Source of the DNA: a phage
Sequence record: PZ386964.1
Strand: one strand, 5' to 3'
Length of the DNA: 64,000 nucleotides
In this document: positions 2,826-47,823 of the stretch, piece by piece
How positions within the stretch are numbered: the first letter of the stretch is position 1
Layout: every line of letters starts with the position of its first letter
Notes under the pieces: generated by a model
The model's database searches: none
Seen by the model: the letters and a program-made list of their open reading frames with translations, nothing else
Told to the model about the DNA's origin: nothing
Position numbers and translations under genes: made by a program

Positions 2826-2901
2826 TTTGTATTCCTCTATTTCGTTTCGATGAAGTAATTATGACTCATCTTCCGTGACAAGTCAAATTATTTTTTTGAT
2901 A

Positions 2902-4425
2902 TTAATTCATCTTTTTGCCGTCGAGGATGTGATCAGCAAGCATTGACTTCATACTGAGTGAACGCTGAATTTCTTCGTCGATGGTATCAACACCAATAAA
3001 ATCAACATACAACACGCTTGATTTGGTGCCGATGCGGTGATTTCGGTCTTCGGATTGTTTGCGCAGCTCGTTGTCGTAGTTGCAAGAATAATAAATTGCC
3101 AAGTCAGCGGCGGTAAGCGTGATTCCGATGCCTGCCGCGGCTGCGTGACACACCAACACTTGCGTTCCACCGTTCTCGACTGTGTTTTTCTGGAAGTCAT
3201 CAATCAAGAACTCGCGCTGCTCTTTTGATGTTTCACCGTTGTACACACCAGTGACCACGCCTTCAGACTCAAGCCAGTCCTTAATCTGGTTCATCTCTTC
3301 CTTAAAGATGGCCCAAACAATGAATTTGCGCTCTGGGTCGTCTTCCAGCACCCCTTCCACATAATCCTTAAAGGCTGTGAATCGTGGGTTGTCTTCCATG
3401 TAGACCATCTCATCATACACCTTAACAAAGCCTGATGTCACCTGCTTCATCTTGGTGCGAGATGCGATCATCTCAAACTTAACGTTTTCTTCTTCGCCTT
3501 TATACTCCATCAGATAATTGTACTCATTCTTGAGTTCATCATAGACATCGCGCTGCTTAGGCGACAACTCGAAGTCGATAAACTTGTACACCTTCTCTGG
3601 AAGGTCCGGCAGGTATTCCGCTTTTGTCGCGCGGAAATAGTGCGGCTCCATCAGCCGGATAAGCTTGTCAAGGTTTTTGTACATCGGTCGGCCAAACTGG
3701 TCTTTGCGCGGCACTTGCGGAATGCCATAACCGTTGCCGCCGATTTTCTTGAGAATGGCCTGCATCTCTGGGTCGTGCGCTTCAAGCAGCACTGTAAATT
3801 CAGAGTTAAATGCGCGGAACGATTTGGTGCCAAGCAAACCTGCTTCAAGGAAGTGATACTGCATGTAAATATCAGCAGGCGAGCGCGGCAGCGGCGTACC
3901 GGAAAGGATTCGACGGGCCTTTGCCAGCCGTCCCAATTCCACAACCTTGATGGAGCGTTTGGCTGTGTTATTTTTGATACGCGTCGATTCATCAATGATC
4001 ATCAAACAGCGGTACTTCTTCAGTACGGACTCAATGTGTTGATAACCGACTGGCGTGTTCACCGTGTCAATGTTGAATGAGAAGATTCGTGCAGGCACTT
4101 CGCCTTCAGGATAGTGATCAGCAAACATCTTCTCCCAAAGTGCCTTGCCCTTTTTAGTTTTCATTTTGTCATTGCCGCGCCAGTAATGACCAATCCATTT
4201 AATGGAAAGGTGCTCTGGTGCTTCACGACGAATCCAGTTTGAGTGTACACCGTTAGGAGCGATTACAACCATGGCATCAAATGCGCCAGCGGTAAAATGC
4301 TTTTCAAACTCTGCCAAAGCGGTCCAGGTTTTGCCAAGACCCTGCTCCATGAAATAAGCAAAGTATTTTCTGCGGCCTGCTTTATCAAGCGCCAATAATT
4401 GGTGGCGCATTCCTTGTGTTTTCAT
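2902..4425 (-). CDS. SNF2-family (SF2) helicase/ATPase
   Basis: 507 aa; Walker A-like GLGKT, DEST-type motif II (MIIDESTRIKN), C-terminal helicase motifs. Confidence 0.7.
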   Translation of the reverse strand: MKTQGMRHQLLALDKAGRRKYFAYFMEQGLGKTWTALAEFEKHFTAGAFDAMVVIAPNGVHSNWIRREAPEHLSIKWIGHYWRGNDKMKTKKGKALWEKMFADHYPEGEVPARIFSFNIDTVNTPVGYQHIESVLKKYRCLMIIDESTRIKNNTAKRSIKVVELGRLAKARRILSGTPLPRSPADIYMQYHFLEAGLLGTKSFRAFNSEFTVLLEAHDPEMQAILKKIGGNGYGIPQVPRKDQFGRPMYKNLDKLIRLMEPHYFRATKAEYLPDLPEKVYKFIDFELSPKQRDVYDELKNEYNYLMEYKGEEENVKFEMIASRTKMKQVTSGFVKVYDEMVYMEDNPRFTAFKDYVEGVLEDDPERKFIVWAIFKEEMNQIKDWLESEGVVTGVYNGETSKEQREFLIDDFQKNTVENGGTQVLVCHAAAAGIGITLTAADLAIYYSCNYDNELRKQSEDRNHRIGTKSSVLYVDFIGVDTIDEEIQRSLSMKSMLADHILDGKKMN

Positions 4426-15845: not shown

Positions 15846-16928
15846 ATGGCTAGTTTAAGAGAAGAAGCAAAAATAATCGAAGAGTTTTTAACAGAACTCC
15901 AAAGAGGCATTCCAGAAGATGAGCGCGTCATGACGGTGTTTGCGCCTGAAGCAACGGTACAGACTGACGAGCGCGGCAAGAAGATTAACAGCAGCTTCTG
16001 GCCTAAGCCTTGGAAGTTGGGAAAGCCGCTGATGCAACATCAGAACGGTTACGCCTGCATAAGTTCAATGCGTAAGTCTCCCAACCCAAAGACGGGTGAG
16101 ATGCGATACTGGCGTACAGAGTCGGCCTTTGGTCACGGCATGGCGATGATGGTCGACGACATCGGTCACGGTAAAGGGTCCAAAGGCGATTTAGATTTGG
16201 AATTCTTTTTTGAGCGACTGAAGCCGACTGTCATCGTCGAGACTTCACCGAACAACCACCAGCTTTGGTACTTCTTTAAAGAACCGATTGACCATCTTAT
16301 TCAGTTCAAAGCGTTCCTTGGGTCTTTCGTTAACATGGTACTCAAGAAGGGCGGCGACAACACGATTAAAGACGTAACGCGCGTGGGCCGTGTTCCTGGG
16401 TGCATCAACAACAAGCGTGTGACTCACGACGGCCCCTATAAATATGTCGATGAGAACGGCGACCCGTTCCGCTGCCGACTTGTCCATGCAGACTACTCAT
16501 TGCGCTACACCATCGAAGACATTTGTCAGGCATTTGGCTTTCACGTCGTCATGCCGCAAAAGCGTGAGATTCAAATTGACGTCGATGAATACAAGTATGA
16601 TGCTGTTTGGTATAAAATAGCCCAGCAGATTCTATCGCGCAGCAAAATGGGTGAAGGGTCTGATGGTGACGTCATCGAGAACATGTCAGGCAAGTGCCGC
16701 ATAATCTGTCCTTGGGGTGAAGAACACACCAACGGCGACCCGTATGGCGCTTACTTTCGCGGCCCTATTCCTGGTGCAGAACATGAGTTTGTGTTCGGTT
16801 GCGCCCACGACTGTCACCGGAAAGGGGAAGGCAAGAAAGGTTGGACTGCTTTTGTTGAAGCAATCGTCATGCCTTATATTGAGAATCAACTTGACATGAT
16901 AAATCGTCGTGCAGGTGGCATAAAATAG
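15846..16928 (+). CDS. primase-polymerase (prim-pol/AEP-like) replication protein with C-terminal Cys/His cluster
   Basis: 360 aa; MVDDIGHG acidic motif and VIVETSPNNHQLWYFF (S..G.HxW-type prim-pol motif); C-terminal CRIICPWGEEH...FGCAHDCH zinc-binding-like cluster. Confidence 0.45.
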   Translation: MASLREEAKIIEEFLTELQRGIPEDERVMTVFAPEATVQTDERGKKINSSFWPKPWKLGKPLMQHQNGYACISSMRKSPNPKTGEMRYWRTESAFGHGMAMMVDDIGHGKGSKGDLDLEFFFERLKPTVIVETSPNNHQLWYFFKEPIDHLIQFKAFLGSFVNMVLKKGGDNTIKDVTRVGRVPGCINNKRVTHDGPYKYVDENGDPFRCRLVHADYSLRYTIEDICQAFGFHVVMPQKREIQIDVDEYKYDAVWYKIAQQILSRSKMGEGSDGDVIENMSGKCRIICPWGEEHTNGDPYGAYFRGPIPGAEHEFVFGCAHDCHRKGEGKKGWTAFVEAIVMPYIENQLDMINRRAGGIK

Positions 16929-18237: not shown

Positions 18238-19908
18238 ATGTCAATTGAACATGACAATCTTCCAGAGGATACAGGTGATGAATTTGGTGCAATCTTTGAC
18301 GAAATTCAAGACGCTGGTGTTTCAGAAGAGATGCAAGCGGCAGAGCAGCAAGGCACCAGAGCTAAAATCAGCCTCCAGCATAAGGCTGTTGAGAAAGATG
18401 CAGAGCGCATGGAATGCTACGGTGAAGAAGACTTGGTTGAAAGAGCACGCTTGCTCGCCTCACTTCAGGTAATCAAGTTCCCTCACTACAAGCCTACCAA
18501 AGATGACTTCGTTCTACAGGCAGACCGGACGAGTGACATGAACCGTTATGCGGTTTTCGACGCGTTGTTTGATAAGGGAAGTGGCATTGTTCCATTCCCT
18601 CACAAAGATACTTTTCGTGGGCGCTTAGTCGACCATCGCGGCGAAACATTCACTGACCGTACCTTGGAAGTCACAGAGATAGTTGCCGCTGTCGACGCAG
18701 CAGGACTGTCTAACCCAAACTCACGTCAGGTCGCTCAATCCTATAAGGAATGGGCCATGCGTTATCAGCGCGACGACCTGATGGACTTCTTCTACAAGAA
18801 GCTTCCTGAATGGGACGGTACTGCGCGCATTGAAAAATACCTTATCGAGCTATTCCGACCGTTCGATACAGAGTTAAACCGACAAATCGGTGTGTATTTT
18901 TGGCTATCGCTCTACAACCGCCTGACAAACCCTGGATGTCAAGCGCCAATCTCCATCGCGCTCATCGGCGGCCAGAACGCAGGGAAGAGTTATTTTAGTA
19001 AGCTACTTTGCGAAGCTATTATGAACGACCGCCACGCAACACCGATTCCGTTGAACTTGGCCGCGCAGAACTTCAACCCGTTCTTGCGAGCTATTACGGG
19101 TCGCTCAATTATCGCGAACGTTGGCGAGATGACAGGCTTTAAAAAGGCTGACATCGAAAACATGAAAGCATTCCTGACTAAGACGGAAGATGACCTGGAC
19201 TTCAAATTTGAAGATACGCAGGTTAAACCACGCCAGTGGATTGCTATCATGGACGGCAACGAATACGCAGGTATGCAGCGTGATGACACGGGCAACCGTC
19301 GTGTGTATCCTATCTTTGTTGGCCAACTCGCCGACAAGGACGGGCAACCGAACTGGTCGAAAGATTTCCAAGCCGACCTTTCCACTTTGAAAGAAGACGT
19401 TTGGCAGTTGATGGCTGAGTGCGCTGCATGGATGGAGAAGCACGGCGAAGCAGGTTACAACGCATTTGTCGGTGAAACATCTCGCATGCTTACTGAGTTC
19501 AGCAAGAACGAAATGGAACGTGCACGCGGCGTTATCCGTGATGAGATGGTCGACAACGACCTTGTTGAAGTAGTCATCACCGCGCCTTATGACCGACATC
19601 ACAGCGGACGCTGGCACATCACCAGTGGTGCAATCGCTATGGGATTCAGAGCTAAGTGCGGCAAGTCGCCTTTCTCACGTACCCTTGCGCCGCACATGTC
19701 GAAGCTTGGATTTGAGCCTGCAACCTATCGCAACCAGCGTGGTTACTTTACGCCGCTGATTAAGAATGAAGCAGGGGAATACATTTCTGACTTGATGACC
19801 ATCTTAGCGTATCTTATTCGCGATGAGTCTGACCCTGAAGATATTGACTTCTTGAAGAAGGTTATTGAACGCAAACGTTCTTTAGGAAGAGATAAGGATG
19901 AATTCTGA
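18238..19908 (+). CDS. D5/VirE-like primase-associated SF3 helicase
   Basis: 556 aa; Walker A IALIGGQNAGKS in the central region, architecture typical of phage/plasmid D5-N / VirE-family helicases. Confidence 0.5.
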   Translation: MSIEHDNLPEDTGDEFGAIFDEIQDAGVSEEMQAAEQQGTRAKISLQHKAVEKDAERMECYGEEDLVERARLLASLQVIKFPHYKPTKDDFVLQADRTSDMNRYAVFDALFDKGSGIVPFPHKDTFRGRLVDHRGETFTDRTLEVTEIVAAVDAAGLSNPNSRQVAQSYKEWAMRYQRDDLMDFFYKKLPEWDGTARIEKYLIELFRPFDTELNRQIGVYFWLSLYNRLTNPGCQAPISIALIGGQNAGKSYFSKLLCEAIMNDRHATPIPLNLAAQNFNPFLRAITGRSIIANVGEMTGFKKADIENMKAFLTKTEDDLDFKFEDTQVKPRQWIAIMDGNEYAGMQRDDTGNRRVYPIFVGQLADKDGQPNWSKDFQADLSTLKEDVWQLMAECAAWMEKHGEAGYNAFVGETSRMLTEFSKNEMERARGVIRDEMVDNDLVEVVITAPYDRHHSGRWHITSGAIAMGFRAKCGKSPFSRTLAPHMSKLGFEPATYRNQRGYFTPLIKNEAGEYISDLMTILAYLIRDESDPEDIDFLKKVIERKRSLGRDKDEF

Positions 19909-26560: not shown

Positions 26561-27063
26561 CTAACAAAACGCAACGCATCAATTTTGAAGGCAAAGAATA
26601 TGAAATAGATGCTCGTGCAAAGTTTATCGCACGGGATTCTAACGGCACCGTCTGGACGTATGAAGAGAAGCCTGCATGGAACGAGCGACATGGCCAGTGG
26701 GTTGGCCAGTGGGGATATGCAATCGGCGATTCACTTTGGTGCAAGCAAATTGGCGATGGTAAAATTTTCGAAGAAAACAGACCAGCGTCACGTGATTCAT
26801 TAAAAGAAGTCGCAACAATCAAGGTGCAAGAACGAATGGCATCGACCAACCAATACTACGCAGTCGGGCAGCGTGACATCGAGCAACTCGACGAGGGCGG
26901 CTATTATACGCGCCACATCTATGCCATAACGCATGAAGGACTCTACAGCAAGTCGGACATCGCCGCTGAACTGGCCCATCGTGACTTGCAAATTGACATG
27001 TTGCGTCTAGCTCTTGAGAAGCAAACACAAATCGCTATTGGAATTTTGGAGAAGTTAAAATGA
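26557..27063 (+). CDS. hypothetical protein
   Basis: 168 aa ORF. Confidence 0.45.
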   Translation: MTNKTQRINFEGKEYEIDARAKFIARDSNGTVWTYEEKPAWNERHGQWVGQWGYAIGDSLWCKQIGDGKIFEENRPASRDSLKEVATIKVQERMASTNQYYAVGQRDIEQLDEGGYYTRHIYAITHEGLYSKSDIAAELAHRDLQIDMLRLALEKQTQIAIGILEKLK

Positions 27064-27479
27064 TCCAACGTTATGATGTAGACTATTGCACGCAGCACGC
27101 CTGCACTTGTGAAATGGAAAAGGATGATGAAGGCGGTTACGTTGAGTATGAAGCTTATGCCGCGCTGGAAGCGAAATACAGTGAAGCGCAACGCGAGTTG
27201 GTTGCATTACGCTCACAGGTCCGTGATGCGTCGGCGCTCGTTAAGCAGTTGCACGACGTTGTTGCTACTATAGGCGTGGATGATGATGCGCCGAAGGAGG
27301 AAGCGTGGACCGTGTGGTTTGGTGGCGCGAATCCGGTGCCTGGGAAGATGGTTGAGTTTGAATTACTCAACGGTTATAAATCAAAAGAGGCCGTTCCTTC
27401 GGATAGTTTGACATGGGATAAAGTCACAAGCCCGACTGGTGCAAAGATCATTGCTTATCGGGTCGTTAAGGAGGGGTGA
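27060..27479 (+). CDS. hypothetical protein; C-terminal domain paralogous to 25384-25890
   Basis: Shared NPVPGK...IIAYRVV C-terminal motif. Confidence 0.5.
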   Translation: MIQRYDVDYCTQHACTCEMEKDDEGGYVEYEAYAALEAKYSEAQRELVALRSQVRDASALVKQLHDVVATIGVDDDAPKEEAWTVWFGGANPVPGKMVEFELLNGYKSKEAVPSDSLTWDKVTSPTGAKIIAYRVVKEG

Positions 27480-28015
27480 TGGGCGGCTTTTGGCGTAAAG
27501 CGAAATACTCTAAAGAGTTGCATTACTTCTTAAAAGATGAAGGCATAAGCATTTGCGGCAGGTATAAAAGGGATGGCAATTCAACTTTGCAAATTGACAA
27601 GAAGGCCGATTGGTTGCTCAAGGAAGAGTGCACCGTTTGCCGCGAGCGTTTAGATAGAAAAGTGAAAACGGTTGACTACATAAAGGAGCTTCAAAGCAGG
27701 TGCAAAAGTCCGCAGGAGTTCGCCATTGCTCTTTGGGGTGATCACCCTGAATTAAGAAAGGAATGGTTAAAGACTGATGCGATCAACTCTATTTTTAAAA
27801 TGAAGTATATGACTACCGCCAGATATAAAATGGAAAAATCAGTCATTAAGAAGGTATTATCTTATTGGAGGGATACGGTTGACATTGTAAAAATAAAGAA
27901 ATACCAAAAGGAAGTATTGCTGGAATTGGAAAGGATTGGTTATAAAGTCACCAATAAAATGATAGAGGAAGAGATAAAAAGACGGACTGACAAAGGATTG
28001 ATGCCTAAATTGTAG
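27476..28015 (+). CDS. hypothetical protein (Cys-containing, Lys-rich)
   Basis: 179 aa ORF, last gene of the rightward early block. Confidence 0.45.
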   Translation: MMGGFWRKAKYSKELHYFLKDEGISICGRYKRDGNSTLQIDKKADWLLKEECTVCRERLDRKVKTVDYIKELQSRCKSPQEFAIALWGDHPELRKEWLKTDAINSIFKMKYMTTARYKMEKSVIKKVLSYWRDTVDIVKIKKYQKEVLLELERIGYKVTNKMIEEEIKRRTDKGLMPKL

Positions 28016-28119
28016 CTAATAAACGGACGCTGCTTTACGTGTTTTGAATAATGGGATGTGTACAATGGGTCGCTTTATGCGGCCTTTTGTCGTTTTTGTT
28101 GGAAATTTTGAAGTGAGTG

Positions 28120-28710
28120 GCGTGGACCGTGGTGGTTTGAGGCTTGGTTGATACGTATGGAATTTAGGATATTGTGGATGAAAATAATAAATAAAATGGA
28201 AATTTGTATTTATTTTTGGAGTATGAGCATTTGATTTTGGATTTTAGTGTGCGGATTTTGGAGAGTGAACCGTGGTGTGTGGTGGCGAAAGCCGCGCCGT
28301 GCCTGGATTCTATGGTTGAAGAGTACACTCTTACGGATAGGTTTTTATCCGTATCATGGCGCTAGGGTGCGCCGCGCCTGGATTTGTACACTGAATCTTA
28401 CGGATGATACGGATGATACGCCATTTTTCCTTATTGTAACCAGAATTATTTCAAAAATTAATTAACTCCATTTTGAATTAATTTAAATTAATTTTTTCTA
28501 CATCCTCATACTTATGTTAATTTATATATTTAACGTATTATCCGTAAGATATAAGTAAAAACAAAGACTTGCGGCAATACGGATGATACGTCATGATACG
28601 CTTCAACCAGCCAACTGCGGCTAAGTCATTGATTTGCATAACAAGCGGCGAAAGGGATGGATTTCTTTTATACGTATCAAACAGTACACCACGCACCACG
28701 GTCCGTTATC
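28120..28710. repeat. iteron-rich, AT-rich noncoding region 1
   Basis: Multiple copies of ACGGATGATACG / CGTATCATCCGTA in both orientations (about 28329-28358, 28396-28422, 28545-28557, 28575-28601); GATTTTGGA x3 at about 28241-28260; GGACCGTGGTG at 28124/28267 and its reverse complement at about 28687-28704; AT-rich core 28440-28540. Confidence 0.6.
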
Positions 28711-28765
28711 CATTCAGCACTATGATTTGTGTACGTTTATAGCCATAATGAACATCAATCTGCAC

Positions 28766-28794
28766 TTGAATATAATGTCCATCCATTGTATAAT
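28766..28794 (+). promoter_or_regulatory. sigma70-like promoter
   Basis: TTGAAT -17- TATAAT upstream of the gene starting at 28830. Confidence 0.4.
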
Positions 28795-28829
28795 TCACAC
28801 TATTAATTTGCACTATGGGATTTTGCACT

Positions 28830-29303
28830 ATGAGTCAAGATTATGTAGCGATGCCTGAAGACTTTGAAGACCCGCGATTTGCAGAGCACAATCAGGCTTT
28901 ATTCGATGAGTTCATTGACCTTGTTATTCAGGGCCATGACATGCGCGCAGCTTTTGCACTAGTATTTGGAATGGAAGTTGCAACGGATAACTACACTGGC
29001 CAGCGAATCCTTTGCGCGCAACGCAATCCATACTACAAGATGCGCTTCAAAAAGCGTATGGAAGAGATGCCACTCAAGGATTTGTGGAGCGTAAAAGGTG
29101 CAATTCACAATTTGGTCAAGCTTGTGCGTGATCCAGAAGTCGCGGCATCAGCCAAGCTTAATGCTATTCGTGAACTGAATATCATCTACGGCATCACGAT
29201 GATTGATGAAAACGGCAATAGTAAAATGGGCCGTTCTATGGACGATTTCTACAAGGATTTTGGAGAGGCGGCCAAAGAAGGTGAGCAATTCTCCCGCCAC
29301 TAG
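28830..29303 (+). CDS. hypothetical helix-rich protein; candidate DNA-binding protein (small-terminase-like or regulator)
   Basis: 157 aa from ATG 28830; start codon lies inside a copy of the TTTGCACTATG motif; helix-rich sequence FIDLVIQGHDMRAAFALVFG, KLNAIRELNIIYGI. Function is inference. Confidence 0.45.
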   Translation: MSQDYVAMPEDFEDPRFAEHNQALFDEFIDLVIQGHDMRAAFALVFGMEVATDNYTGQRILCAQRNPYYKMRFKKRMEEMPLKDLWSVKGAIHNLVKLVRDPEVAASAKLNAIRELNIIYGITMIDENGNSKMGRSMDDFYKDFGEAAKEGEQFSRH

Positions 29304-29417
29304 CCAATTTGCACTATAAAACGGCCCTAGAACACATTTTCTCCACTTCTAGGGCCATCGGTAATACGACGGGGAAGGTTACAACCATAAACGCGTTAGA
29401 AAGTGTATTATTATAAG

Positions 29418-29681
29418 TCATCTTTTAGTCACTTTCCGTAACAATTTACGACCTTCAACCGTCCAATCGAACGACTCCACCAGCAGATTTGCACCATAAC
29501 CCAAGACGATGCGCCCTTTCTCGTTATCGACCCGCCAACAAGTCTCGAATAGCATTCGATTTGCACTATTAACTATTGCCGCAACGCGCGTTGGGTAAGC
29601 GCAATTTGCACTATGGTCATAAAGGGATAAGGTGCGACCACTTCCGATGGACAACGTAGCAATGAGAATAAGCGTATTCAT
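29418..29681 (-). CDS. hypothetical protein
   Basis: 87 aa ORF; contains three antisense copies of the 11-mer motif, so coding status is uncertain. Confidence 0.3.
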   Translation of the reverse strand: MNTLILIATLSIGSGRTLSLYDHSANCAYPTRVAAIVNSANRMLFETCWRVDNEKGRIVLGYGANLLVESFDWTVEGRKLLRKVTKR

Positions 29682-29731
29682 AAGCCACCAATTTGCACTA
29701 TGAAAAGCGACCCCGAAGGGCCGCCATTCAA

Positions 29732-30358
29732 TTAGATGATTTGGAATGTGTAGGATTTATTACCGAACTCGAAGTTCAAGCGCCCAGCTTCCTTAAGCTT
29801 CATGCGGAAGCGAATATGCTTGCTATCCGGTAGGCCCAGCGCGGCGAACGCTACGCGGACCGATTTGAACTCTCCTACACCCTCGACCATAACGCCGTTA
29901 CGGGTGAGACGCTTTTGCGCCACTTCCTTATTGTCCCAACTTTTTGCAATGCCTTCGCTATTCGAACGGCGATGGGAAGGAGTTCCATTTTGCACTACGC
30001 AATTTGCACTATCGTTTAAACCGCTCTTAACGAAGGCTTCATACTCTTCGTCGGTCATCGCGTCGAGTTCTTCCTGAGTCGGCTCGGCCTTTTTAACTAC
30101 CGCACGCGCCTTATGCGTTTTTACATCGCTGGACACTTCCTCGCGCGGCTTCGCGTCGGGGATGGGCGATTCGTTGGACGGCTCATCGAGCGCGTTTAAG
30201 GACTCGATTAACGCGATTACGCGAGTCTCGGCGGTCCGGCGGTCCGCAAACTTCTTAATCGGCTTCGAACCGGAATTTGCATTATAAAATGCAACGAGGT
30301 CGGCGGTCTTAGTTGCGATAACGTCGCCGCTAGTCGAGAAACGATTTAAGCTAACCAT
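29732..30358 (-). CDS. hypothetical protein
   Basis: 208 aa ORF with protein-like composition; contains three antisense copies of the motif. Confidence 0.4.
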   Translation of the reverse strand: MVSLNRFSTSGDVIATKTADLVAFYNANSGSKPIKKFADRRTAETRVIALIESLNALDEPSNESPIPDAKPREEVSSDVKTHKARAVVKKAEPTQEELDAMTDEEYEAFVKSGLNDSANCVVQNGTPSHRRSNSEGIAKSWDNKEVAQKRLTRNGVMVEGVGEFKSVRVAFAALGLPDSKHIRFRMKLKEAGRLNFEFGNKSYTFQII

Positions 30359-30438
30359 AATAAACTCCTATTTGTTAGGGCGCTAGGCGCGAAAGAATTT
30401 TATTAAAGCGCCGCGCACGACGCTCTAAAAATCCTCTC

Positions 30439-30723
30439 TTACGCTTCGACGAGGGAGAAGGTCTCAAATTCTTCTTCGCCCATAACGAGTAAGATATTAC
30501 CGATTTCGACCGCTTCGAAGAAGTATCCGTTAACGTTTACTTCGAAGGCTTCGCGGTCCGATTCCGGTAGCGCCGCGTAAAGTTTAAAAGCCTCGGCGAC
30601 CGTTACCCCACCCGCCTCGATAGTTTGGTCTACGTTCGCGGCGTAGACTTCGGATAAATTTTGTTTAACGCCGTAGTTCTCGACGATAGCGTTACGAATA
30701 GAAGAAACGTTAAGAATAGCCAT
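30439..30723 (-). CDS. small acidic hypothetical protein (cassette A; paralog of 31358-31648)
   Basis: 94 aa; N-terminus AILNVSSIRNAIVE..VYAANVDQTIE aligns with ITLAAIRNARAE..VYLFNVDATIEE of cassette B; homologous promoter, 5'-UTR hairpin and RBS. Confidence 0.5.
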   Translation of the reverse strand: MAILNVSSIRNAIVENYGVKQNLSEVYAANVDQTIEAGGVTVAEAFKLYAALPESDREAFEVNVNGYFFEAVEIGNILLVMGEEEFETFSLVEA

Positions 30724-30740
30724 TTTAAACTCCTAGTTGG

Positions 30741-30770
30741 GAGAGGCGTTAACGACCTATTCGTTAACTC
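30741..30770 (-). promoter_or_regulatory. 5'-UTR stem-loop of cassette A (GUUAACGA-AUAGG-UCGUUAAC)
   Basis: Minus-strand reading gagTTAACGAataggTCGTTAAcgcctc; homologous to the cassette B hairpin with two compensatory base-pair changes; followed by CCAACTAGGAG RBS. Confidence 0.55.
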
Positions 30771-30791
30771 ATCCCGTCCCGATATGAGTAC

Positions 30792-30819
30792 ATTATAATA
30801 TAGTGTAGAAAAAAGTAAA
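30792..30819 (-). promoter_or_regulatory. sigma70-like promoter of cassette A (minus strand)
   Basis: Minus-strand TTTACT -16- TATAAT, preceded by CGAAAAAGTGCTTTACT shared with cassette B. Confidence 0.45.
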
Positions 30820-30862
30820 GCACTTTTTCGATAAAAATGAGATAAATTATTTTATCTTTTTC

Positions 30863-30890
30863 TTTACTTCTTCGTACACTCGCATATACT
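30863..30890 (+). promoter_or_regulatory. sigma70-like promoter of middle gene (cassette C), divergent from cassette A promoter
   Basis: TTTACT -16- TATACT with shared TTTACTTCTTCGTACACT and TTTATATCGAGA elements. Confidence 0.45.
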
Positions 30891-30946
30891 TGTTTATATC
30901 GAGACGGGCGATGTCCCTTCCTTCTACTAGCATCGGGAGCTTTATT

Positions 30947-31249
30947 ATGACTACTTTAATCTCTTCCATCCTTACTTACGACGAAGACCGCTTAACCGTT
31001 CGCTCTCTTATCGCCGCCGTTAACGCGGAACTAGAATCTAGCGCCATTAAGGTCCGCGCGGTCGCCTTCATCGGCCTTTCCTTCGACGATATGAAGTATG
31101 CCGAACGTAGCGCTATCCGCTTCGCGAAGACCGACGACGAAGCCGTTACCCTTATCGAGACGGTTACGCCGCGCGGCGAAGCGTTAATTATCGTCGAGTA
31201 TATCGACGTAGAAGGCGATAAGGCTTATAAATATTTTATCGCAGAATAA
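30947..31249 (+). CDS. small acidic hypothetical protein (cassette C)
   Basis: Start at MTTLISSILTYDEDRL... with RBS GGGAG; the ORF-track N-terminal extension overlaps the promoter. Confidence 0.45.
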   Translation: MTTLISSILTYDEDRLTVRSLIAAVNAELESSAIKVRAVAFIGLSFDDMKYAERSAIRFAKTDDEAVTLIETVTPRGEALIIVEYIDVEGDKAYKYFIAE

Positions 31250-31260
31250 CGAAAAAGTGC

Positions 31261-31289
31261 TTTACTTCTTCGTACACTAAGACTATAAT
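31261..31289 (+). promoter_or_regulatory. sigma70-like promoter of cassette B
   Basis: TTTACT -17- TATAAT; upstream CGAAAAAGTGCTTTACT is the reverse complement of 30812-30830. Confidence 0.45.
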
Positions 31290-31310
31290 GTTTTATATCG
31301 AGAGGGGGAT

Positions 31311-31336
31311 GAGGTAGCGAATAGGTCGCTACCCTC
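31311..31336 (+). promoter_or_regulatory. 5'-UTR stem-loop of cassette B (GGUAGCGA-AUAGG-UCGCUACC)
   Basis: gagGTAGCGAataggTCGCTACcctc; same loop AUAGG as cassette A, stem differs at two positions with compensatory partner changes; followed by CCAACTAGGAG RBS and ATG 31358. Confidence 0.55.
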
Positions 31337-31357
31337 CCGACCAACTAGGAGATTATT

Positions 31358-31648
31358 ATGATTACTTTAGCCGCTATCCGTAACGCTCGCGCCGAAACTT
31401 CCGAAAACTCTAACGTATTTGGCGAAAAACTTAAAAACGTTTATCTCTTTAACGTAGATGCGACTATCGAGGAGCTTCATAGTCCTATCGATTTTAGCGA
31501 ATTTACGGAACTCGAAGAGGAAGATATTTCTACCTTCCGCGTTACTATCGAAGGCAAGGTTTATTTTGCTACGGAGTTCGGCGGCGAATATCTCGCGGTA
31601 TCCGAAGGCGAAGGCCGTTACTCTTTCTTTAAAATCGTCTCCTTATAA
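31358..31648 (+). CDS. small acidic hypothetical protein (cassette B; paralog of 30439-30723)
   Basis: 96 aa; paralogous to cassette A protein; followed by a strong terminator. Confidence 0.5.
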   Translation: MITLAAIRNARAETSENSNVFGEKLKNVYLFNVDATIEELHSPIDFSEFTELEEEDISTFRVTIEGKVYFATEFGGEYLAVSEGEGRYSFFKIVSL

Positions 31649-31668
31649 TACCCTTCCGTTATTAATAG

Positions 31669-31693
31669 GCCGCGCTTAGTCGCGGCTTTTCTT
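31669..31693 (+). terminator. rho-independent terminator
   Basis: GCCGCG-CTTAGT-CGCGGC hairpin followed by TTTTCTT. Confidence 0.65.
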
Positions 31694-31813
31694 CGTCCCT
31701 ATCTCGATGCGCTTCTCCGCGAAAACTCCTTTATCCTTCCCTTCTTCGTCGCATAATCTTCATCGAGATGCGCCTTAGTTCGCATAACAGGTATTACGTT
31801 AAATGGAGAACAT

Positions 31814-32078
31814 CGCGTAAGTCCTTGTTTTATATAGACACCTATATCGGACCGTTAGGGCGGGTCGCGTAAGTCGTTGTTTTATAAAGGCGCAAAACTT
31901 TCCCTTCGTTCCGAACTAAAACGAGAAATATGCCGACCCTTCGCCGGAAAATAGTACGCATGCGAAATTACATGCATCTAGAATAATCCCCACCGATATT
32001 ATCCTACACGCAATCATTCGCTTTCGAATCATTATGCTTCATATTATTATGCGTCGAATCATTCGCTTTCGAATTGTA
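31814..32078. repeat. noncoding repeat block: 23-bp direct repeats and two copies of an imperfect palindrome
   Basis: CGCGTAAGTC(C/G)TTGTTTTATA at about 31814 and 31866; AATCATTCGCTTTCGAAT at about 32012 and 32057; further GAATTTGCAGTACACT copies at about 32164 and 32261. Confidence 0.5.
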
Positions 32079-32347
32079 ACGCTGGAAACTGTAACGTCGA
32101 TTGATTATTGCGTTCGTGTGGTTTTTATGGCATGGGTCTTTTGGTGCGTTTTGCTACTTGATGGAATTTGCAGTACACTAATCAAAATACGACACATTTG
32201 GTCCACTAACTTTTCAAAGAAAAAGTCCTAGACAGTACCGTACTATTTTGTACCCACAGGAAATTTGCAGTACACTCCTGTGCGGCAGGCAAAATAAAGG
32301 GCCGCACCAAGCGACCCACGATTCACGGTTAAATCAACAAGCACCCA

Positions 32348-37627: not shown

Positions 37628-39088
37628 ATGAATAAAATATTAACACATAATTGGAAATTCATGTACCAGTTGAATCCTGCTTTAAAAGAAGTCTGGAAGA
37701 CAAAAGCGCGATACAAAGTAATATACGGCGGTCGTGCATCTTCCAAATCGCACGATGCCGCTGGTTTTGCTATTTATTTGGCGGCAAACTTCAAATTAAA
37801 ATTCCTTTGCGTTCGACAATTCCAGAACAAGATTTCTGAATCTGTATATACTCTATTAAAAGATAAAATAGAGATTTCTGATTTTAAAGATGAGTTCAAT
37901 TTATTAAAGAACTCTATCGAGCATAAAAGAACTAAATCTGAATTTCTATTTTACGGTATCGCACGTAACGTTGATGAAATTAAATCAACGGAAGGCGTTG
38001 ATGTTCTTTGGCTGGAAGAAGCGCACGCACTTACTGAAGAACAGTGGGACATTATTGAGCCGACAATCCGTAAAGAAGGGTCAGAAATATGGATCATCTT
38101 TAACCCTGATGAAGAGGCCGATTTCGTCTACCAAAACTTTGTTATGCGACCGCCGAAGAATGCCATAGTTAAAAAGATAAACTGGCAAGACAACCCATTC
38201 TTGTCGCAAACAATGCTGGATGTTATCGCAGGCATGTACGAGCGCGACCCGAAAAAGGCAGAGCACGTTTATGGCGGCGTGCCGAAGACTGGTGGCGATA
38301 AATCTGTAATCAACCGTGCATTCGTTAAGGCCGCGCTAAATCTCCACAAACATCCTACGCTGGGGTGGAGTTTGTCAGGGTCCAACCGTATAGGCTTTGA
38401 CGTAGCGGACGATGGCGACGACCTTAACGCCACTGCATTCGTCACAGGAAACGTATTGCGCGGCATCAAGACGTGGGAAGGTCTGGAAGATGAATTGTTG
38501 AAATCGGCAAGCGGAGTTTGGAAAGATGCGCTTACATTTGGCGCTTCTATAACTTATGACGCCATCGGTGTCGGCGCTTTTGCTGGTTCAAAATTTGATG
38601 AACTGAACGAGTATGCAATACATGAAAATCCATCATTTCCAAGAATCGAATTTAATGCGTTCAATGCGCAAGGGTCTGTTGATGATCCTGATGACGTTTT
38701 TCTTGAATTACCACACGTTGAAATACTCAATAAAGACCATTTCGCAAACATAAAAGCGCAAAAGTGGACTGAAATTGCAGAGAGATTCAGAAAGACATAC
38801 GAATATGCAACTGGGCAAGCCGTATATCCGACTGATGAATTGATTTCAATCGACACCGATGGCATACCGGAACTTGGGATTCCAGCTTGGACTACTGAAG
38901 AGATTGAGACGTTTCTTTTTGAGATGTCAGCGCCGCGCAAAGACACTTCTGTTCTTGGCAAGTTCAAAGTTGAATCCAAAAAGGATATGGCAAAGCGTGG
39001 AGTCAAATCACCTAACAAAGCGGACGCAGCAATCATGGCATTGATGAAACCAATCGTTGCAGCATCCGGCTTCTTCTCTAACCTTTAA
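37628..39088 (+). CDS. terL: terminase large subunit
   Basis: 486 aa; Walker A VIYGGRASSKSH, Walker B-like DVLWLEEAH, C-terminal nuclease-like region with acidic residues. No obvious RBS before ATG 37628, so start is uncertain. Confidence 0.7.
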   Translation: MNKILTHNWKFMYQLNPALKEVWKTKARYKVIYGGRASSKSHDAAGFAIYLAANFKLKFLCVRQFQNKISESVYTLLKDKIEISDFKDEFNLLKNSIEHKRTKSEFLFYGIARNVDEIKSTEGVDVLWLEEAHALTEEQWDIIEPTIRKEGSEIWIIFNPDEEADFVYQNFVMRPPKNAIVKKINWQDNPFLSQTMLDVIAGMYERDPKKAEHVYGGVPKTGGDKSVINRAFVKAALNLHKHPTLGWSLSGSNRIGFDVADDGDDLNATAFVTGNVLRGIKTWEGLEDELLKSASGVWKDALTFGASITYDAIGVGAFAGSKFDELNEYAIHENPSFPRIEFNAFNAQGSVDDPDDVFLELPHVEILNKDHFANIKAQKWTEIAERFRKTYEYATGQAVYPTDELISIDTDGIPELGIPAWTTEEIETFLFEMSAPRKDTSVLGKFKVESKKDMAKRGVKSPNKADAAIMALMKPIVAASGFFSNL

Positions 39089-44073: not shown

Positions 44074-44211
44074 ATGCAAAAGATTATTCAGTCACGTTAC
44101 GTTAAAGTGCGAAATATTAATTGCAACTCTTTGCTTTCTTGGAAATGGGCTGTTTACGACTCGATGCTGATTGGCGTTTTAGTTGCTGGAGTGCTTTTTA
44201 ATATTCACTGA
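44074..44211 (+). CDS. small hypothetical membrane peptide (45 aa)
   Basis: Strong RBS AGAGGAAG; C-terminal hydrophobic LIGVLVAGVLF. Confidence 0.3.
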   Translation: MQKIIQSRYVKVRNINCNSLLSWKWAVYDSMLIGVLVAGVLFNIH

Positions 44212-44253
44212 ATCGCCTGGCAATGGATTGCCGCAGGATTTTACGCGTATAAT

Positions 44254-44521
44254 GACGTATCATCCGTATCAAGTAAGTAGTTGTTTTCGAAAGAATCTTA
44301 CGGGTGATACGGATGATACGCGTTGCCGCGATACTTTATAGGAATTCAAATAAATTAATTTAAAATTATATATCTAATTTAATTTTATTTTTTTATAAAC
44401 TCTTATATATGAAAAGTATCCGTATCATCCGTATCATCCGTAGCACACCAGTGATAGCGCGGCTTATACACCGATACGGATAAAAATACGCCTCATTTTA
44501 TCCGTATCATCCGTATCACAC
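44254..44521. repeat. iteron-rich, AT-rich noncoding region 2 (same 9-bp unit as region 1)
   Basis: CCGTATCAT units: 44254-44273, 44297-44322 (inverted), tandem copies 44416-44444 and 44496-44521, degenerate copy 44471-44492; AT-rich core 44340-44410. Confidence 0.6.
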
Positions 44522-44575: not shown

Positions 44576-44604
44576 TTGCCTAAGTTTTTTTCATTAGATA
44601 TAAT
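44576..44604 (+). promoter_or_regulatory. sigma70-like promoter for the head/tail structural operon
   Basis: TTGCCT -17- TATAAT, about 25 nt upstream of the protease/scaffold gene. Confidence 0.55.
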
Positions 44605-44633
44605 ACACAATACTTATTTGAGGGTGGATGCGA

Positions 44634-46049
44634 ATGCAAACGGCACGCGAAATTGACAAAAATGGATTCTTGACGATTGTGGGTTGTCCCATTTCGTCAT
44701 TTGGCATTTTTGATTATTCTGCAGGTCAGGTTGGACTTGATGGTGATCCGAATCGCATCGTAAAAGTTTATCGCCCAGAGTCAGCGGTGAAAGACCCCGA
44801 AGCGATAGATTCATTCAAAAATATCCCTTTCATCGACAATCACGAAATGCTTTCTGGATTCGAAGGTGATGAGGATAACACAGCACCCGAAGAGTATGGC
44901 GTTGATGGCGTTCTAACTGGCAATGTTTATTATGACAAGCCATGGATGCGCGGCGACCTTAAAGTGTTTAGCCGTCGTCTTAAGAAGGCCATTGATTCTG
45001 GAAAGGCTGATTTGTCTTTGGGCTATGACTGTGAATTCATCATACAGTCTGGAGAGTTTGACGGGCAGCCGTATGAAGTGGTACAAACAACTCTTCGCGG
45101 CAACCATATTGCTCTCGTGGACGTTGGTCGAGTACCAGGTGCACGGGTGCTGGATGGTCGTTGCTTTGACCATCTTTGTTTGACGACTGTAACACCATCC
45201 AACGAGGATTTAGACATGCCAAAACCGTTAAAAGGTAAAGCGCGTGATAATGCTGTTGAACAGCTGAAATCACTGATCCCTGCGCTCGAACAATTTCTGA
45301 ATGAAGAGAGCACCGAAGCTGCTCATCAGGACGAAGTTGAAGTGAAAGCAGAAGAGAAGGATTCAACCGAAGAACGTGAAGAAGTGATGGTTGATCCAGA
45401 AGTTAAAGCAGAAGCTGAAGAGACTCCAGAAGGTGAAGAGAAGTTTGAAGTTGAAACTGAATCTCACGCTGGCGGCGAACTTCCGCAACTGATCAGCCAA
45501 ATCGAAGCACTTATTGCAAAACTGAAAGGTGGCGCGGTAGGTGATGAAGAAGAAGTTGAAGCCGAAGTCAAAGACGAAGAAGAAATTGAAGTCAAGGCTG
45601 AAGATGTATCACCTTGCGACAAAGCTGAAGATGTGGTTAGCGGCCTGCAAAACAGCAACGTAAAGGGGGCTTCGGTCGAAAAAGATGACAAACCGACAAA
45701 AGCGGCGAAAGCGTCGCCAGGTCCAGCAAAAGGGGAACACTCAATGGCATCTGATTCAGCAGTTGCTGCTTTCTACGCTGATTCTGCTCGTAAGAATAGC
45801 CTCTACCAGCGCCTGTCTAAAGTTGTTGGTGCCTTTGATCATGCAACTATGGACTCCAAGTCCGTAGCGAAATATGGCGCTAAAAAGTTAGGCTTGAAGT
45901 GCGTTGATGGTGCTGAGTTTGACGTTGTGGATAATTATCTGCGCGGCGTTGAACACGGTCAAAAACAGCGTGTAGTCGCAAAACAAAAGGCCGCTGCGGA
46001 TTCTGCAGCAACTGACGAAGCATTTGAAGCTTGGTTGAAAGGGGAATAA
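44634..46049 (+). CDS. prohead protease / scaffolding protein (putative fusion)
   Basis: N-terminal globular domain followed by a long Glu/Lys-rich acidic region typical of scaffold proteins; sits between portal/F-like genes and the capsid gene. Alternative start at 44628. Confidence 0.45.
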   Translation: MQTAREIDKNGFLTIVGCPISSFGIFDYSAGQVGLDGDPNRIVKVYRPESAVKDPEAIDSFKNIPFIDNHEMLSGFEGDEDNTAPEEYGVDGVLTGNVYYDKPWMRGDLKVFSRRLKKAIDSGKADLSLGYDCEFIIQSGEFDGQPYEVVQTTLRGNHIALVDVGRVPGARVLDGRCFDHLCLTTVTPSNEDLDMPKPLKGKARDNAVEQLKSLIPALEQFLNEESTEAAHQDEVEVKAEEKDSTEEREEVMVDPEVKAEAEETPEGEEKFEVETESHAGGELPQLISQIEALIAKLKGGAVGDEEEVEAEVKDEEEIEVKAEDVSPCDKAEDVVSGLQNSNVKGASVEKDDKPTKAAKASPGPAKGEHSMASDSAVAAFYADSARKNSLYQRLSKVVGAFDHATMDSKSVAKYGAKKLGLKCVDGAEFDVVDNYLRGVEHGQKQRVVAKQKAAADSAATDEAFEAWLKGE

Positions 46050-46683: not shown

Positions 46684-47823
46684 ATGACTCGCATTAGCCA
46701 AACACACTCTCGCCTCCCAGCGAGCAAGGTGCGCCCTTTTGATATGCAATCCGTTACCGACGCGGCTGTTTCCCAGCTTGCTCGTATCGGTATTGTGTTT
46801 GATTCCGCGATTGTGCGTGATCAGATTGAGCACTTAAACCGTGCAGGCGCTTTCCGCGTAGGTGACGCCGCGTTTACCGCGCCGCAGACCACGCCATCAA
46901 TCCCGACCCCGCTGCAGTTCCTGCAACAGTGGCTGCCTGGCTTCGTCAAAATCATGACCGCTGCCCGTAAAATTGACGAGCTGGTTGGTATTGACACCGT
47001 TGGTCAGTGGGAAGATGCAGAAATCGTTCAGGGCATCGTTGAACCAGCTGGCACCGCAGTTGAATATGGTGATTTCACCTCTATTCCTCTGGCAAGTTGG
47101 AACGTGAACTTTGAACGTCGTTCCATCGTTCGCGGTGAAATGGGCATGGCAGTCGGCATGCTGGAAGAAGGCCGCGCGTCTGCGATGCGTCTGAACTCCG
47201 CAGAGACCAAGCGCCAGCAGGCTGCTGTATCTCTGGAAATCATGCGTAACGCAATCGGCTTCTATGGTTGGTACAACGGGAACAACCGCACGTTCGGCTT
47301 CCTGAATGATCCAAACCTGCCAGCGGCGATGACTTCAAACACCACTTCCGGCTGGGCTACTGCGACCTTCCAACAGGTGACTGCAGACATCCGTTTGATG
47401 GTTCGTCAAATTCGTGTAAACTCTCAGGATCAGATTGATCCAGAGAAGGTTGACATGACTCTGGCGTTGCCGACCAACTCTATTGATTGGCTGTCAAACA
47501 CCACCGACTTCGGTATTTCTGTACGTGACTGGATCACCCAGACTTATCCGAAGATGAAGATCAAATCTGCACCGGAACTCAACGGCGCACTTGGCAGTGA
47601 CCCGACTTTCCTGAACGTGGCATATCTGTACGCTGATCACATCGATTCCTCAATTGATGGCTCAAGCGATGATGGTTCCGTATTCAGTCAGCTGGTCCAG
47701 ACTAAGTTCATGACTCTGGGCGTTGAGAAACGTGCCAAGAGCTACGTTGAAGACTACGCAAACGCAACAGCAGGCGTTCTGCTCAAGCGTCCTTTCGCAG
47801 TCGTCCGTATGACTGGTATCTAA
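46684..47823 (+). CDS. major capsid protein (putative)
   Basis: 379 aa; position after protease/scaffold; followed by strong hairpin at 47849-47878. Confidence 0.5.

What the first reader, a model, noticed from the sequence alone, without database searches (positions are those of the whole stretch)
44254..44521. Second iteron/AT-rich region with the same 9-bp unit, directly upstream of the structural operon promoter
The CCGTATCAT unit recurs 3.5-16 kb away from region 1 (44254-44273, 44297-44322, tandem at 44416-44444 and 44496-44521) around an AT-rich core, immediately upstream of a strong TTGCCT-17-TATAAT promoter for the head/tail operon. Two spaced copies of the same iteron family suggest binding sites for one phage protein that could couple replication to late transcription, or two origins.
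Basis: seen in the sequence. Interest (0 to 1): 0.6.

Follow-up and report, generated by a model that had tools for sequence, protein, structure and literature searches.

The report
Twin iteron modules: origin and genome end
The repeat cluster in front of the head genes is real. It is the internal twin of a second cluster that contains the spot where this phage family's DNA is cut to start packaging, and both look like origin-type sites bound by one lineage-specific phage protein.

Summary
Window 44245-44519 holds 12 copies of a 9-bp unit (core CGTATCA) in opposed arrays around a 77-bp, 91% AT core. A TTGCCT-17-TATAAT promoter and the head protease gene follow. The only other cluster (28148-28680) has the same anatomy. 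The window is a Wifcevirus (PB1-like E. coli myophage).

Three findings are new:
- The left physical end of the genome (direct terminal repeat start, window 28469|28470) lies inside the AT core of the sister module, just upstream of terS. In Pbunavirus the equivalent nucleotide is the experimentally mapped pac start.
- Wifcevirus, Kylevirus, Myosmarvirus and Pbunavirus all carry both modules at the same two places. Each genus has its own heptamer, shared by its two modules. This implies one co-evolving DNA-binding protein.
- The phage encodes a full-length structural homologue of SaPI Rep, a self-loading SF3 initiator helicase with a predicted winged helix. Its known origins have exactly this anatomy.

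My best reading (0.45) is that region 2 is an internal Rep-type replication origin whose twin also marks the packaging start. The main rival (0.3) is a terminase (pac-like) site paralogue. None of the papers or GenBank annotations I checked describes the modules. Interest 0.6.

The parts
44074..44211 (+). Small 45-aa ORF ending just before the module. It equals Mansfield gp27. The vB_Eco4M-7 record annotates a transmembrane domain for it.
   Evidence: Sequence; annotations. Small ORFs occupy the same position in MTx, Kyle and Pa193.
44245..44272 (+). Left outer array: 3 tandem 9-bp units (GCGTATAAT, ACGTATCAT, CCGTATCAA).
44295..44321 (-). Left inner array: 3 tandem units read on the minus strand (GCGTATCAT, CCGTATCAC, CCGTAAGAT), pointing away from the core.
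   Evidence: It forms a 22-nt inverted repeat with 44421-44442 (I1). The block is nearly identical to 28393-28423 of the sister module.
44336..44412 (.). AT-rich core, 77 bp and 90.9% AT. Putative unwinding element. It is homologous to the core that holds the genome end in the sister module.
   Evidence: most AT-rich 80-mer of the window; invariant in 6 Wifcevirus genomes.
44420..44446 (+). Right inner array: 3 tandem units (CCGTATCAT x2, CCGTAGCAC), pointing away from the core.
44471..44479 (-). Single inverted unit (CCGTATCGG on the minus strand).
44502..44519 (+). Right outer array: 2 tandem units (CCGTATCAT, CCGTATCAC).
44576..44604 (+). Sigma-70-like promoter TTGCCT-17-TATAAT, invariant within the genus.
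   Evidence: By my reading of the sequences, equivalent consensus promoters precede the orthologous gene in MTx, Kyle and Pa193.
44628..46049 (+). Head maturation protease/scaffold-type gene (DUF2213), first gene of the head operon. The major capsid gene is at 46684-47823.
   Evidence: Pfam PF09979, 4e-35; PHROG head maturation protease; annotations.
28148..28680 (.). Sister module: units at -28148, +28349 | -28395, -28404, -28413 | AT core 28424-28532 | +28533, +28542 | -28583, -28593 | +28672.
   Evidence: The two modules align collinearly.
28469..28470 (.). Left physical genome end, i.e. the start of the direct terminal repeat (...AATTAACTCC|ATTTTGAATT...), inside the core of the sister module.
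   Evidence: The record starts of WFH, WFC, Ro157lw, SP13 and Mansfield map here. The Mansfield repeat was predicted with PhageTerm. Korf 2019 (PMC6563267) reports a terminal repeat of about 3.7 kb.
28470..32141 (.). Direct terminal repeat, mapped from relatives (3672 bp in this window).
28766..28794 (+). Sigma-70-like promoter TTGAAT-17-TATAAT upstream of terS.
28830..29303 (+). Terminase small subunit (terS).
   Evidence: PDB 7UXE (E217 small terminase), E=7e-34; Mansfield gp2 annotation.
18238..19908 (+). Rep-like SF3 initiator helicase (VapE-like domain). Predicted winged helix at residues ~436-505. The C-terminal part is hypervariable between genera. This is the candidate iteron-binding protein.
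   Evidence: Pfam PF05272, 1.6e-28; PDB 7PDS (SaPI1 Rep1-DNA), E=1.5e-19 by sequence; Foldseek E=2.8e-16 over ~480 columns; alignment A4.
15846..16928 (+). RepB'-type primase, upstream of the helicase gene.
   Evidence: Pfam PF16793, 4.7e-36.

Best explanation
Region 2 is the internal copy of a two-copy 'iterons - AT-rich core - iterons' module.

Shown: each module has arrays of 2-3 tandem 9-bp units (core CGTATCA) that point away from a ~80-110-bp AT-rich core, plus further units outside them. Both modules of a genome use the same genus-specific heptamer. The AT core of the sister module contains the left genome end and packaging start.

Inferred: the repeats are bound by the phage's SaPI-Rep-like SF3 initiator helicase (window 18238-19908) through its fast-evolving C-terminal part, which contains a predicted winged helix. 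The helicase loads on both sides and melts the AT core, and the RepB'-type primase and the phage Pol III start synthesis. On this reading region 2 is an internal replication origin sitting just upstream of the head-operon promoter, comparable to SPP1 oriR or P4 crr.

The sister copy would be an origin too. In addition, the same nucleoprotein complex or its melted core marks where terminase makes the first cut.

I put the claim that one lineage-specific protein binds both modules at ~0.85. I put the claim that this protein is the Rep-like helicase, and the modules therefore origins, at ~0.45.
For: (1) Anatomy. There are 10-12 short repeats per module, with opposed arrays flanking the two most AT-rich stretches of the window. 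SaPI origins are described the same way: 6-12 penta/hexanucleotide iterons, an AT-rich centre, and at least two iterons on each side pointing in opposite directions, bound by the winged helix of Rep (PMC9371898).

(2) The window's 556-aa protein matches SaPI1 Rep1 (7PDS) by sequence (E=1.5e-19). The AF2 model (pLDDT 89) matches it by fold over almost its whole length (E=2.8e-16). The model shows a helix-strand-helix-helix-hairpin pattern, i.e. a winged helix, at residues 436-505.

(3) A RepB'-type primase gene lies upstream of it, as in SaPI pri-rep.

(4) In Pbunavirus and Myosmarvirus the sister module lies directly downstream of this helicase gene, which is the SaPI position of ori.

(5) The heptamers are genus-specific and shared by both modules. 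In the cross-table each genus's words are abundant in its own modules (16-38 counts), and all but two off-diagonal cells are zero (counts 2 and 3). Within-genome P values range from 1e-5 to 1e-17. The helicase core is conserved between genera but its C-terminal ~110 residues are not.

(6) No other iteron-like cluster exists in the window.

(7) E217 TerS, a 41%-identical homologue, is reported to show no appreciable DNA binding in vitro (PMC9611059).
Against: No binding or replication data exist. The only physical fact about either module is a packaging cut in the sister copy, next to terS in all four genera. That fits a terminase site at least as well.

In this window the helicase gene is 8.4 kb from module 1 and 24 kb from module 2. 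The 77-bp AT core is invariant within the genus, which a mere unwinding element would not need, although the flanking DNA is also 95-100% conserved. Divergent C-termini are common and prove little. GC skew follows gene orientation and says nothing about origins.
Confidence: 0.45

Rival explanations
1. Both modules are terminase recognition sites of the SPP1 pacL-pacC-pacR type. TerS rings bind the repeat arrays and TerL cuts in the core. Region 2 is then a pac-like paralogue that is not, or only rarely, cut. It could act as an auxiliary TerS loading, synapsis or titration site, as proposed for the gene 16 / gene 19 pac-like sequences of T4 (recalled from memory). It could also let TerS tune the adjacent head-operon promoter.
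For: The left genome end lies in the core of module 1 in Wifcevirus, Kylevirus and Myosmarvirus. The same homologous nucleotide is the long-read-mapped pac start of JG024 (36 of 161 reads, plus a pac fragment; PMC10913387). It is also the first nucleotide of the Ab28 and Pa193 records.

The terS gene follows module 1 in all four genera, whereas the position of the helicase gene varies. In Kyle the sequence around the cut is nearly the same in module 2. One Pbunavirus record (E215) opens inside the module 2 core. TerS overexpression is reported to lower E217 infectivity, so dosage matters.
Against: E217 TerS reportedly lacks appreciable DNA binding in vitro, although the probe used is unknown to me. 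I know of no precedent for a conserved second pac module 16-20 kb inside a genome. A fully functional second site would give aberrant genomes in the phages with exact terminal repeats, and no end at module 2 has been reported. The TerS N-terminal region is moderately conserved between genera while the heptamers are completely different.
Confidence: 0.3
2. The repeats are operator arrays for a phage transcription regulator that controls the consensus sigma-70 promoters of terS and of the head operon. The genome end falls in module 1 for unrelated reasons.
For: Both modules are followed by a strong rightward sigma-70-like promoter in this window, and by my reading also in MTx, Kyle and Pa193. 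terS and the head genes are both morphogenesis functions. The LMA2 and LBL3 records annotate predicted promoters inside module 2.
Against: The repeats do not overlap the promoters. The last repeat lies 56 nt upstream of the head promoter here and about 75 nt upstream in MTx and Kyle. In module 1 the nearest unit (28672-28680) ends 85 nt upstream of the terS promoter here (the last tandem pair, 164 nt), and the repeat-to-promoter distance reaches several hundred nt in other genera. This reading does not explain the AT core, the opposed arrays, or why the cut lies in the core in four genera.
Confidence: 0.1
3. Region 2 is a non-functional duplicate, a recombination scar or a MITE-like insertion of the terminus region.
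For: The modules are flanked by inverted repeats and partly alike (73% column identity).
Against: The same two positions are occupied in four genera whose repeat words have diverged completely yet stay matched within each genome. The core and right arm are invariant across Wifcevirus.
Confidence: 0.05

Closest known systems
SaPI replication origins with Rep self-loading helicases (PMC9371898)
   Same: Short iterons on both sides of an AT-rich centre, pointing in opposite directions. An SF3 Rep homologue with a winged helix is encoded by the element, with a primase gene upstream. In Pbunavirus and Myosmarvirus one module lies directly downstream of the helicase gene.
   Different: There are two copies per genome. 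The units are heptamers on an 8-9-bp period. In this window neither copy adjoins the helicase gene. One copy contains the packaging cut. The element is a 68-kb virulent myophage, not a satellite.
Two-site iteron systems bound by one initiator: P4 ori plus crr, and SPP1 oriL plus oriR (recalled from memory, not checked here)
   Same: Two distant clusters of the same repeat family in one phage genome. One of them (SPP1 oriR) lies in the late region.
   Different: Neither of those coincides with a genome end. The initiators are different proteins: P4 alpha is the nearer one, while SPP1 G38P is unrelated.
pac sites with repeats flanking the cut: SPP1 pacL-pacC-pacR, and the P1 pac hexamers (from memory)
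   Same: Repeat boxes on both sides of the cleavage region, next to or inside terS. A relative's record notes that the TerL is SPP1-like.
   Different: Those phages have a single pac site. Here a conserved second copy sits 16-20 kb inside the genome, and the centre is an AT-rich unwinding-type core.
T7 origin-like elements: the primary origin plus phiOL and phiOR near the terminal repeats (from memory)
   Same: One kind of origin-type element occurs both internally at ~15-25% of the genome and next to the end of a genome with direct terminal repeats. In T7 it is implicated in end formation.
   Different: The T7 elements are phage RNA polymerase promoters plus AT-rich DNA, not iteron arrays. 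No homology.
T4 gp16 pac-like sequences in genes 16 and 19, the synapsis model (from memory)
   Same: Two related sites near packaging and head genes that may be bridged by TerS.
   Different: The T4 sites are short coding-sequence homologies without an AT core or iteron arrays.

Membership tests
SaPI/P4-type iteron origin served by an SF3 initiator helicase | The element encodes an SF3 helicase with a C-terminal winged-helix origin-binding domain. | tested here: met
   PF05272; 7PDS by sequence, E=1.5e-19. The AF2 model (pLDDT 89) has a winged-helix secondary-structure pattern at 436-505. Foldseek top hit is 7PDS, E=2.8e-16, ~480 columns of a 451-residue chain. DNA binding by that domain is inferred.
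SaPI/P4-type iteron origin served by an SF3 initiator helicase | Several short iterons on both sides of an AT-rich centre, at least two per side, in opposite directions. | tested here: met
   Module 2: minus-strand units at 44295/44304/44313, then the 91% AT core, then plus-strand units at 44420/44429/44438, plus outer arrays. Module 1 has the same layout.
SaPI/P4-type iteron origin served by an SF3 initiator helicase | The origin lies immediately downstream of the rep/helicase gene. | tested here: not met
   In this window the helicase gene ends at 19908 and the modules are at 28.4 and 44.4 kb. The feature is met for module 1 only in Pa193, JG024 and MTx, and never for module 2.
SaPI/P4-type iteron origin served by an SF3 initiator helicase | The initiator binds the iterons specifically and the site supports replication. 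| not testable with these tools
   Only indirect evidence: genus-specific heptamers alongside a hypervariable helicase C-terminus.
Terminase recognition/cleavage site (pac, SPP1 type) | A virion DNA end is generated inside the site. | tested here: inconclusive
   Met for the sister module (PMC10913387, PMC4482731, PMC6563267). For region 2 itself no end is reported. The only hint is that the E215 record opens in its core, which has a ~0.15-0.35 probability by chance.
Terminase recognition/cleavage site (pac, SPP1 type) | The site lies next to or inside the terS gene. | tested here: not met
   Region 2 precedes the head protease gene, and terS is 15.3 kb away. The sister module does meet this feature in all four genera.
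Terminase recognition/cleavage site (pac, SPP1 type) | TerS binds the flanking repeats. | not testable with these tools
   The literature reports no appreciable in vitro DNA binding for the E217 homologue (PMC9611059). The primary paper was not available to me.

The most novel reading that the evidence does not exclude
One nucleoprotein complex serves as both replication origin and packaging signal in PB1-like phages. The Rep-like helicase bound to the iterons, rather than TerS, would supply the sequence specificity. The genome's left end would be cut inside the melted origin core. The internal twin (region 2) would also be nicked or occasionally cut. This would explain why E217-type TerS shows no DNA binding and why every genome keeps two matched modules.
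Probability: 0.2. Interest if true: 0.8.

Novelty: new variant of a known kind. Interest (0 to 1): 0.6.

Why it matters
PB1-like phages (Pbunavirus) are among the Pseudomonas phages most used for personalised therapy (PMC11990801). Wifceviruses are being rebooted synthetically. In the papers I could read, neither the replication origin nor the packaging signal of this group is defined, and the solved small terminase of E217 shows no DNA binding.

The twin modules give concrete, short DNA targets for both questions: genus-specific heptamers, an AT core and a mapped cut. They also supply a natural control, because the two copies are alike but only one is known to become a genome end. Knowing these sites matters for genome design. 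It tells where a rebooted or engineered genome may be opened, what must not be deleted, and what makes a plasmid replicate or be packaged by the phage.

Tried and rejected
- Rfam on both modules: only sub-threshold noise caused by the inverted repeat. No RNA family.
- Cumulative GC skew: follows gene orientation, with its minimum at the divergent point near 15.5 kb. Uninformative for origins.
- Conservation within the genus: the core and right arm are 98-100% identical, but neighbouring coding DNA is often as conserved, so this does not prove selection.
- DnaA box idea: TTATCCGTA differs from TTATCCACA at two core positions. Dropped (sequence inspection only).
- The single CGTATCA 10 nt upstream of the helicase start codon (18221): an isolated copy overlapping the ribosome-binding region, probably chance.
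- GCGGC/GCCGC boxes: not enriched overall (4.7 per kb genome-wide). Only their polarity is striking, so I kept them as a side note.
- Xanthomonas phage XcP1 (Carpasinavirus) and two metagenomic relatives at 41% identity: no clear twin modules. The design is shown only for four genera.
- Single-sequence AF2 model of the helicase C-terminus: pLDDT 44, unusable. Replaced by a full-length model built on 56 sequences.
- The E217 terminase paper and the supplement of the 14-1 transcriptome paper are not held. I could therefore not check which DNA was tested with TerS, or whether transcription starts map inside the modules.
- MITE or mobile-element reading: rejected because the positions are conserved across genera.

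Full report
**What the window is.** The DNA around the finding is 94-98% identical to about 29 Escherichia/Shigella phages of the genus Wifcevirus, such as WFH, WFC, FEC19, ECML-117 and Mansfield. These are 66-72-kb myophages and distant relatives of the Pseudomonas PB1-like phages (Pbunavirus) (PMC11990801).

The finding lies in a 416-bp gap between a 45-aa ORF (44074-44211) and a 473-aa DUF2213 'head maturation protease' gene (44628-46049). The major capsid gene follows at 46684-47823.

- Exact CCGTATCAT occurs 5 times against 0.43 expected, and no shuffle reaches 5.
- With up to 2 mismatches, region 2 has 12 units. They lie on the + strand at 44245/44255/44264, the - strand at 44295/44304/44313, the + strand at 44420/44429/44438, the - strand at 44471, and the + strand at 44502/44511.
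- The heptamer core CGTATCA occurs 15 times in the 1.2 kb of the two intergenic regions that hold the modules, and 6 times in the remaining 62.8 kb.
- The two modules are the two strongest heptamer clusters in the window.
- The core 44336-44412 is 90.9% AT and contains the most AT-rich 80-mer of the window. The core of the other module is second.
- TTGCCT-17-TATAAT lies at 44576-44604.

**Anatomy.** Both modules share one plan.
- Immediately left of the core is an array of three units read on the minus strand. Immediately right of it is an array of two or three units on the plus strand. Both arrays therefore point away from the core.
- The inner arrays form inverted repeats: 22 nt with 100 nt between the arms in module 2, and 17 nt with 122 nt between the arms in module 1.
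- Further units lie outside the inner arrays.
- The block gaatcttacgg[a/g]tgatacggatgatacgc is nearly identical in the two modules, and they align collinearly.

**The sister module contains the genome end.**
- Korf et al. report a terminal repeat of about 3.7 kb for WFC and WFH (PMC6563267).
- In the WFH record, bases 1-3701 equal 67583-71283, and base 1 maps to window 28470, in the middle of the AT core of module 1.
- WFC, Ro157lw and SP13 start at the same nucleotide (...AATTAACTCC|ATTTT...).
- Mansfield also starts there, and its record says 'direct terminal repeat predicted by PhageTerm' (PMC6753283).
- Some of these records may have been oriented after earlier ones, so they are not all independent. 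At least two methods and several laboratories are involved.
- The right boundary of the repeat maps to window 32141.
- The gene just right of the module (28830-29303) is the small terminase. It matches the solved E217 TerS (7UXE) at E=7e-34.

**The same design in four genera, with co-varying repeats.**
- Serratia phage MTx (Myosmarvirus; repeat 1-3566 by PhageTerm) and Pantoea phage Kyle (Kylevirus; 3603-bp repeat in the record) have terS about 360 nt from the left end. Each has a large gap upstream of the orthologous head gene.
- Pbunavirus Pa193 has the same two gaps.
- In each genome the two gaps are collinear paralogues with their own repeat word. The words are CGTATCA (Wifcevirus), ACTTTTC/CGAAAAG (MTx), AATAACC plus GAATATCC (Kyle) and GTAATTTG (Pa193), on an 8-9-bp period.
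- I took the three most over-represented heptamers of module 2 in each genome and counted them in module 1 of the same genome. That gave 3-7 hits against 0.01-0.06 expected (P from 1e-5 to 1e-17).
- In the cross-genus table each genus's words are abundant in its own modules (16-38 counts). All but two off-diagonal cells are zero, with counts of 2 and 3.
- This concerted change is strong evidence that one lineage-specific DNA-binding protein reads both modules.
- Xanthomonas phage XcP1 and two more distant metagenomic relatives show no clear twin modules.

**The cut is experimentally supported in Pbunavirus.**
- Ipoutcha et al. found JG024 to be circularly permuted. 36 of 161 long reads started at 59,376 +/- 5, and a matching pac fragment was seen (PMC10913387).
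- That position is exactly the first base of the Pa193 record (...cagcgaaaat|CGATTGC...).
- It is also the first base of Ab28, whose ends Essoh et al. placed from reads with a fixed termination (PMC4482731).
- It lies in the core of module 1, 601 nt upstream of terS.
- So in all four genera the packaging start or left end lies inside the AT core of module 1.

**Which protein reads the repeats?** There are two candidates.

*(a) TerS.* Its gene follows module 1 everywhere, and repeats flanking a cut recall the SPP1 and P1 pac sites (from memory). Against this, a review from the laboratory that solved E217 TerS states that it showed no appreciable DNA binding in vitro (PMC9611059). I could not read the primary paper.

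*(b) The 556-aa protein at 18238-19908.*
- It has a VapE-like domain and matches SaPI1 Rep1 bound to DNA (7PDS) at E=1.5e-19.
- A model built on 56 homologues (pLDDT 89) shows a winged-helix pattern at residues 436-505.
- Its best structural match is 7PDS over ~480 columns, E=2.8e-16.
- SaPI Reps are self-loading initiator helicases. Their winged helix binds 6-12 short iterons that flank an AT-rich centre and point in opposite directions, directly downstream of rep, with a primase gene upstream (PMC9371898).
- The modules have this anatomy, and a RepB'-type primase gene lies upstream of the helicase gene.
- In Pa193, JG024 and MTx, module 1 lies directly downstream of the helicase gene.
- The helicase core is well conserved between genera, while its last ~110 residues are not.
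- No other iteron-like cluster exists in the window.

**Weighing.** The anatomy, the encoded initiator, the presence of two copies and the TerS report favour origins. The mapped cut and the terS adjacency favour a terminase site for module 1.

I therefore rank the readings as follows:
- 0.45 — both modules are Rep-type origins, region 2 is the internal one, and the complex or melted core at module 1 also directs the first packaging cut.
- 0.3 — region 2 is a pac-type site paralogue.
- 0.1 — the repeats are an operator array for the two sigma-70-like promoters.
- 0.05 — region 2 is a non-functional duplicate.

The claim that does not depend on this choice is that one protein reads both modules and that region 2 is a functional twin of the terminus module. 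I hold that at about 0.85.

**Known or new?** Relatives' records annotate only predicted promoters (LMA2, LBL3) or an unexplained 24-nt repeat_region (goonie) in module 2. None of the papers I could search describes the modules, an origin or a defined pac sequence for these phages. The kind of element is known: an iteron origin, or a pac site with flanking repeats. The paired, co-evolving copies, one of which contains the genome end, are a new variant.

Noticed in passing
window 28470-32141; right boundary region 32012-32280: The direct terminal repeat mapped from relatives ends at ...GGCATGGGTCTTT|T (32141). This right end has none of the CGTATCA units. It sits among other repeats: about 4 copies of a 15-nt unit (AATCATTCGCTTTCG-like, 32012-32074) and GAATTTGCAGTACAC twice (about 32164 and 32262). 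The two ends must therefore be recognised differently.
   Followed up: partly
window 44230, 44325 (GCCGC) and 44459, 44532 (GCGGC); 28291, 28371 and 28571, 28617, 28645; same in L025-L032: In both modules of all four genera, GCCGC boxes lie left of the core and GCGGC boxes lie right of it, never the reverse. GCGGCAA occurs 5 times between the cut and terS against 0.3 expected. Unlike the heptamers, this short motif is conserved across genera. It could be the site of a conserved protein such as TerS or the primase.
   Followed up: partly
window 28124-28135, 28267-28278, 28694-28704 (inverted): A second repeat, G[GA]ACCGTGGTG, flanks module 1 only. In all four genera the flank right of the cut is rich in CACCA/CACCAC. 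In Wifcevirus, MTx and Pa193 the left flank carries the complement (GTGGTG-type); Kyle has almost none on the left. Module 2 lacks this, so it is a candidate for what makes module 1 the one that is cut.
   Followed up: partly
window 27000-28450 versus 28470-29900: DNA left of the cut is hypervariable between Wifcevirus genomes (20-70% identity between the window and WFC). DNA right of the cut is 93-100% identical. The genome end sits at a sharp boundary of conservation.
   Followed up: no
L040/L041 (Pseudomonas phage E215, NC_042080): This record opens inside the core of its module 2 (...GTAACGTTC|CAATAGAATTC...). This could be an arbitrary assembly break; I estimate the chance that one of ~300 records does so at roughly 0.15-0.35. 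It could also hint that module 2 is sometimes cut.
   Followed up: partly
L036 (Bas101), equivalent to window 44299-44307: Bas101 lacks exactly one 9-nt unit of the left inner array. So the copy number can change by whole units.
   Followed up: no
window 30350-31400 (inside the terminal repeat): Repeated promoter/leader cassettes precede the small divergent genes of the terminal repeat. Direct copies lie at 30862-30908 and 31260-31307, and a 55-nt inverted pair at 30721-30775 and 31306-31360. The palindrome CGTTAACG occurs three times (30528, 30747, 31018). CGTTAAC has 18 sites against 6.3 expected in the window.
   Followed up: partly
window 28830-29303 versus 37628-39088: terS and terL are 8.3 kb apart in separate transcription units, with minus-strand genes including a tail fibre gene between them. 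In E217 the separation is described as about 58 kb on the conventional map.
   Followed up: no
window 44290-44450: As a single strand, the inner arrays plus the core fold into one long hairpin (-29.5 kcal/mol, z = -7.2 against shuffles). This is a simple consequence of the inverted repeat, but it matters if the core is melted or extruded as a cruciform.
   Followed up: no
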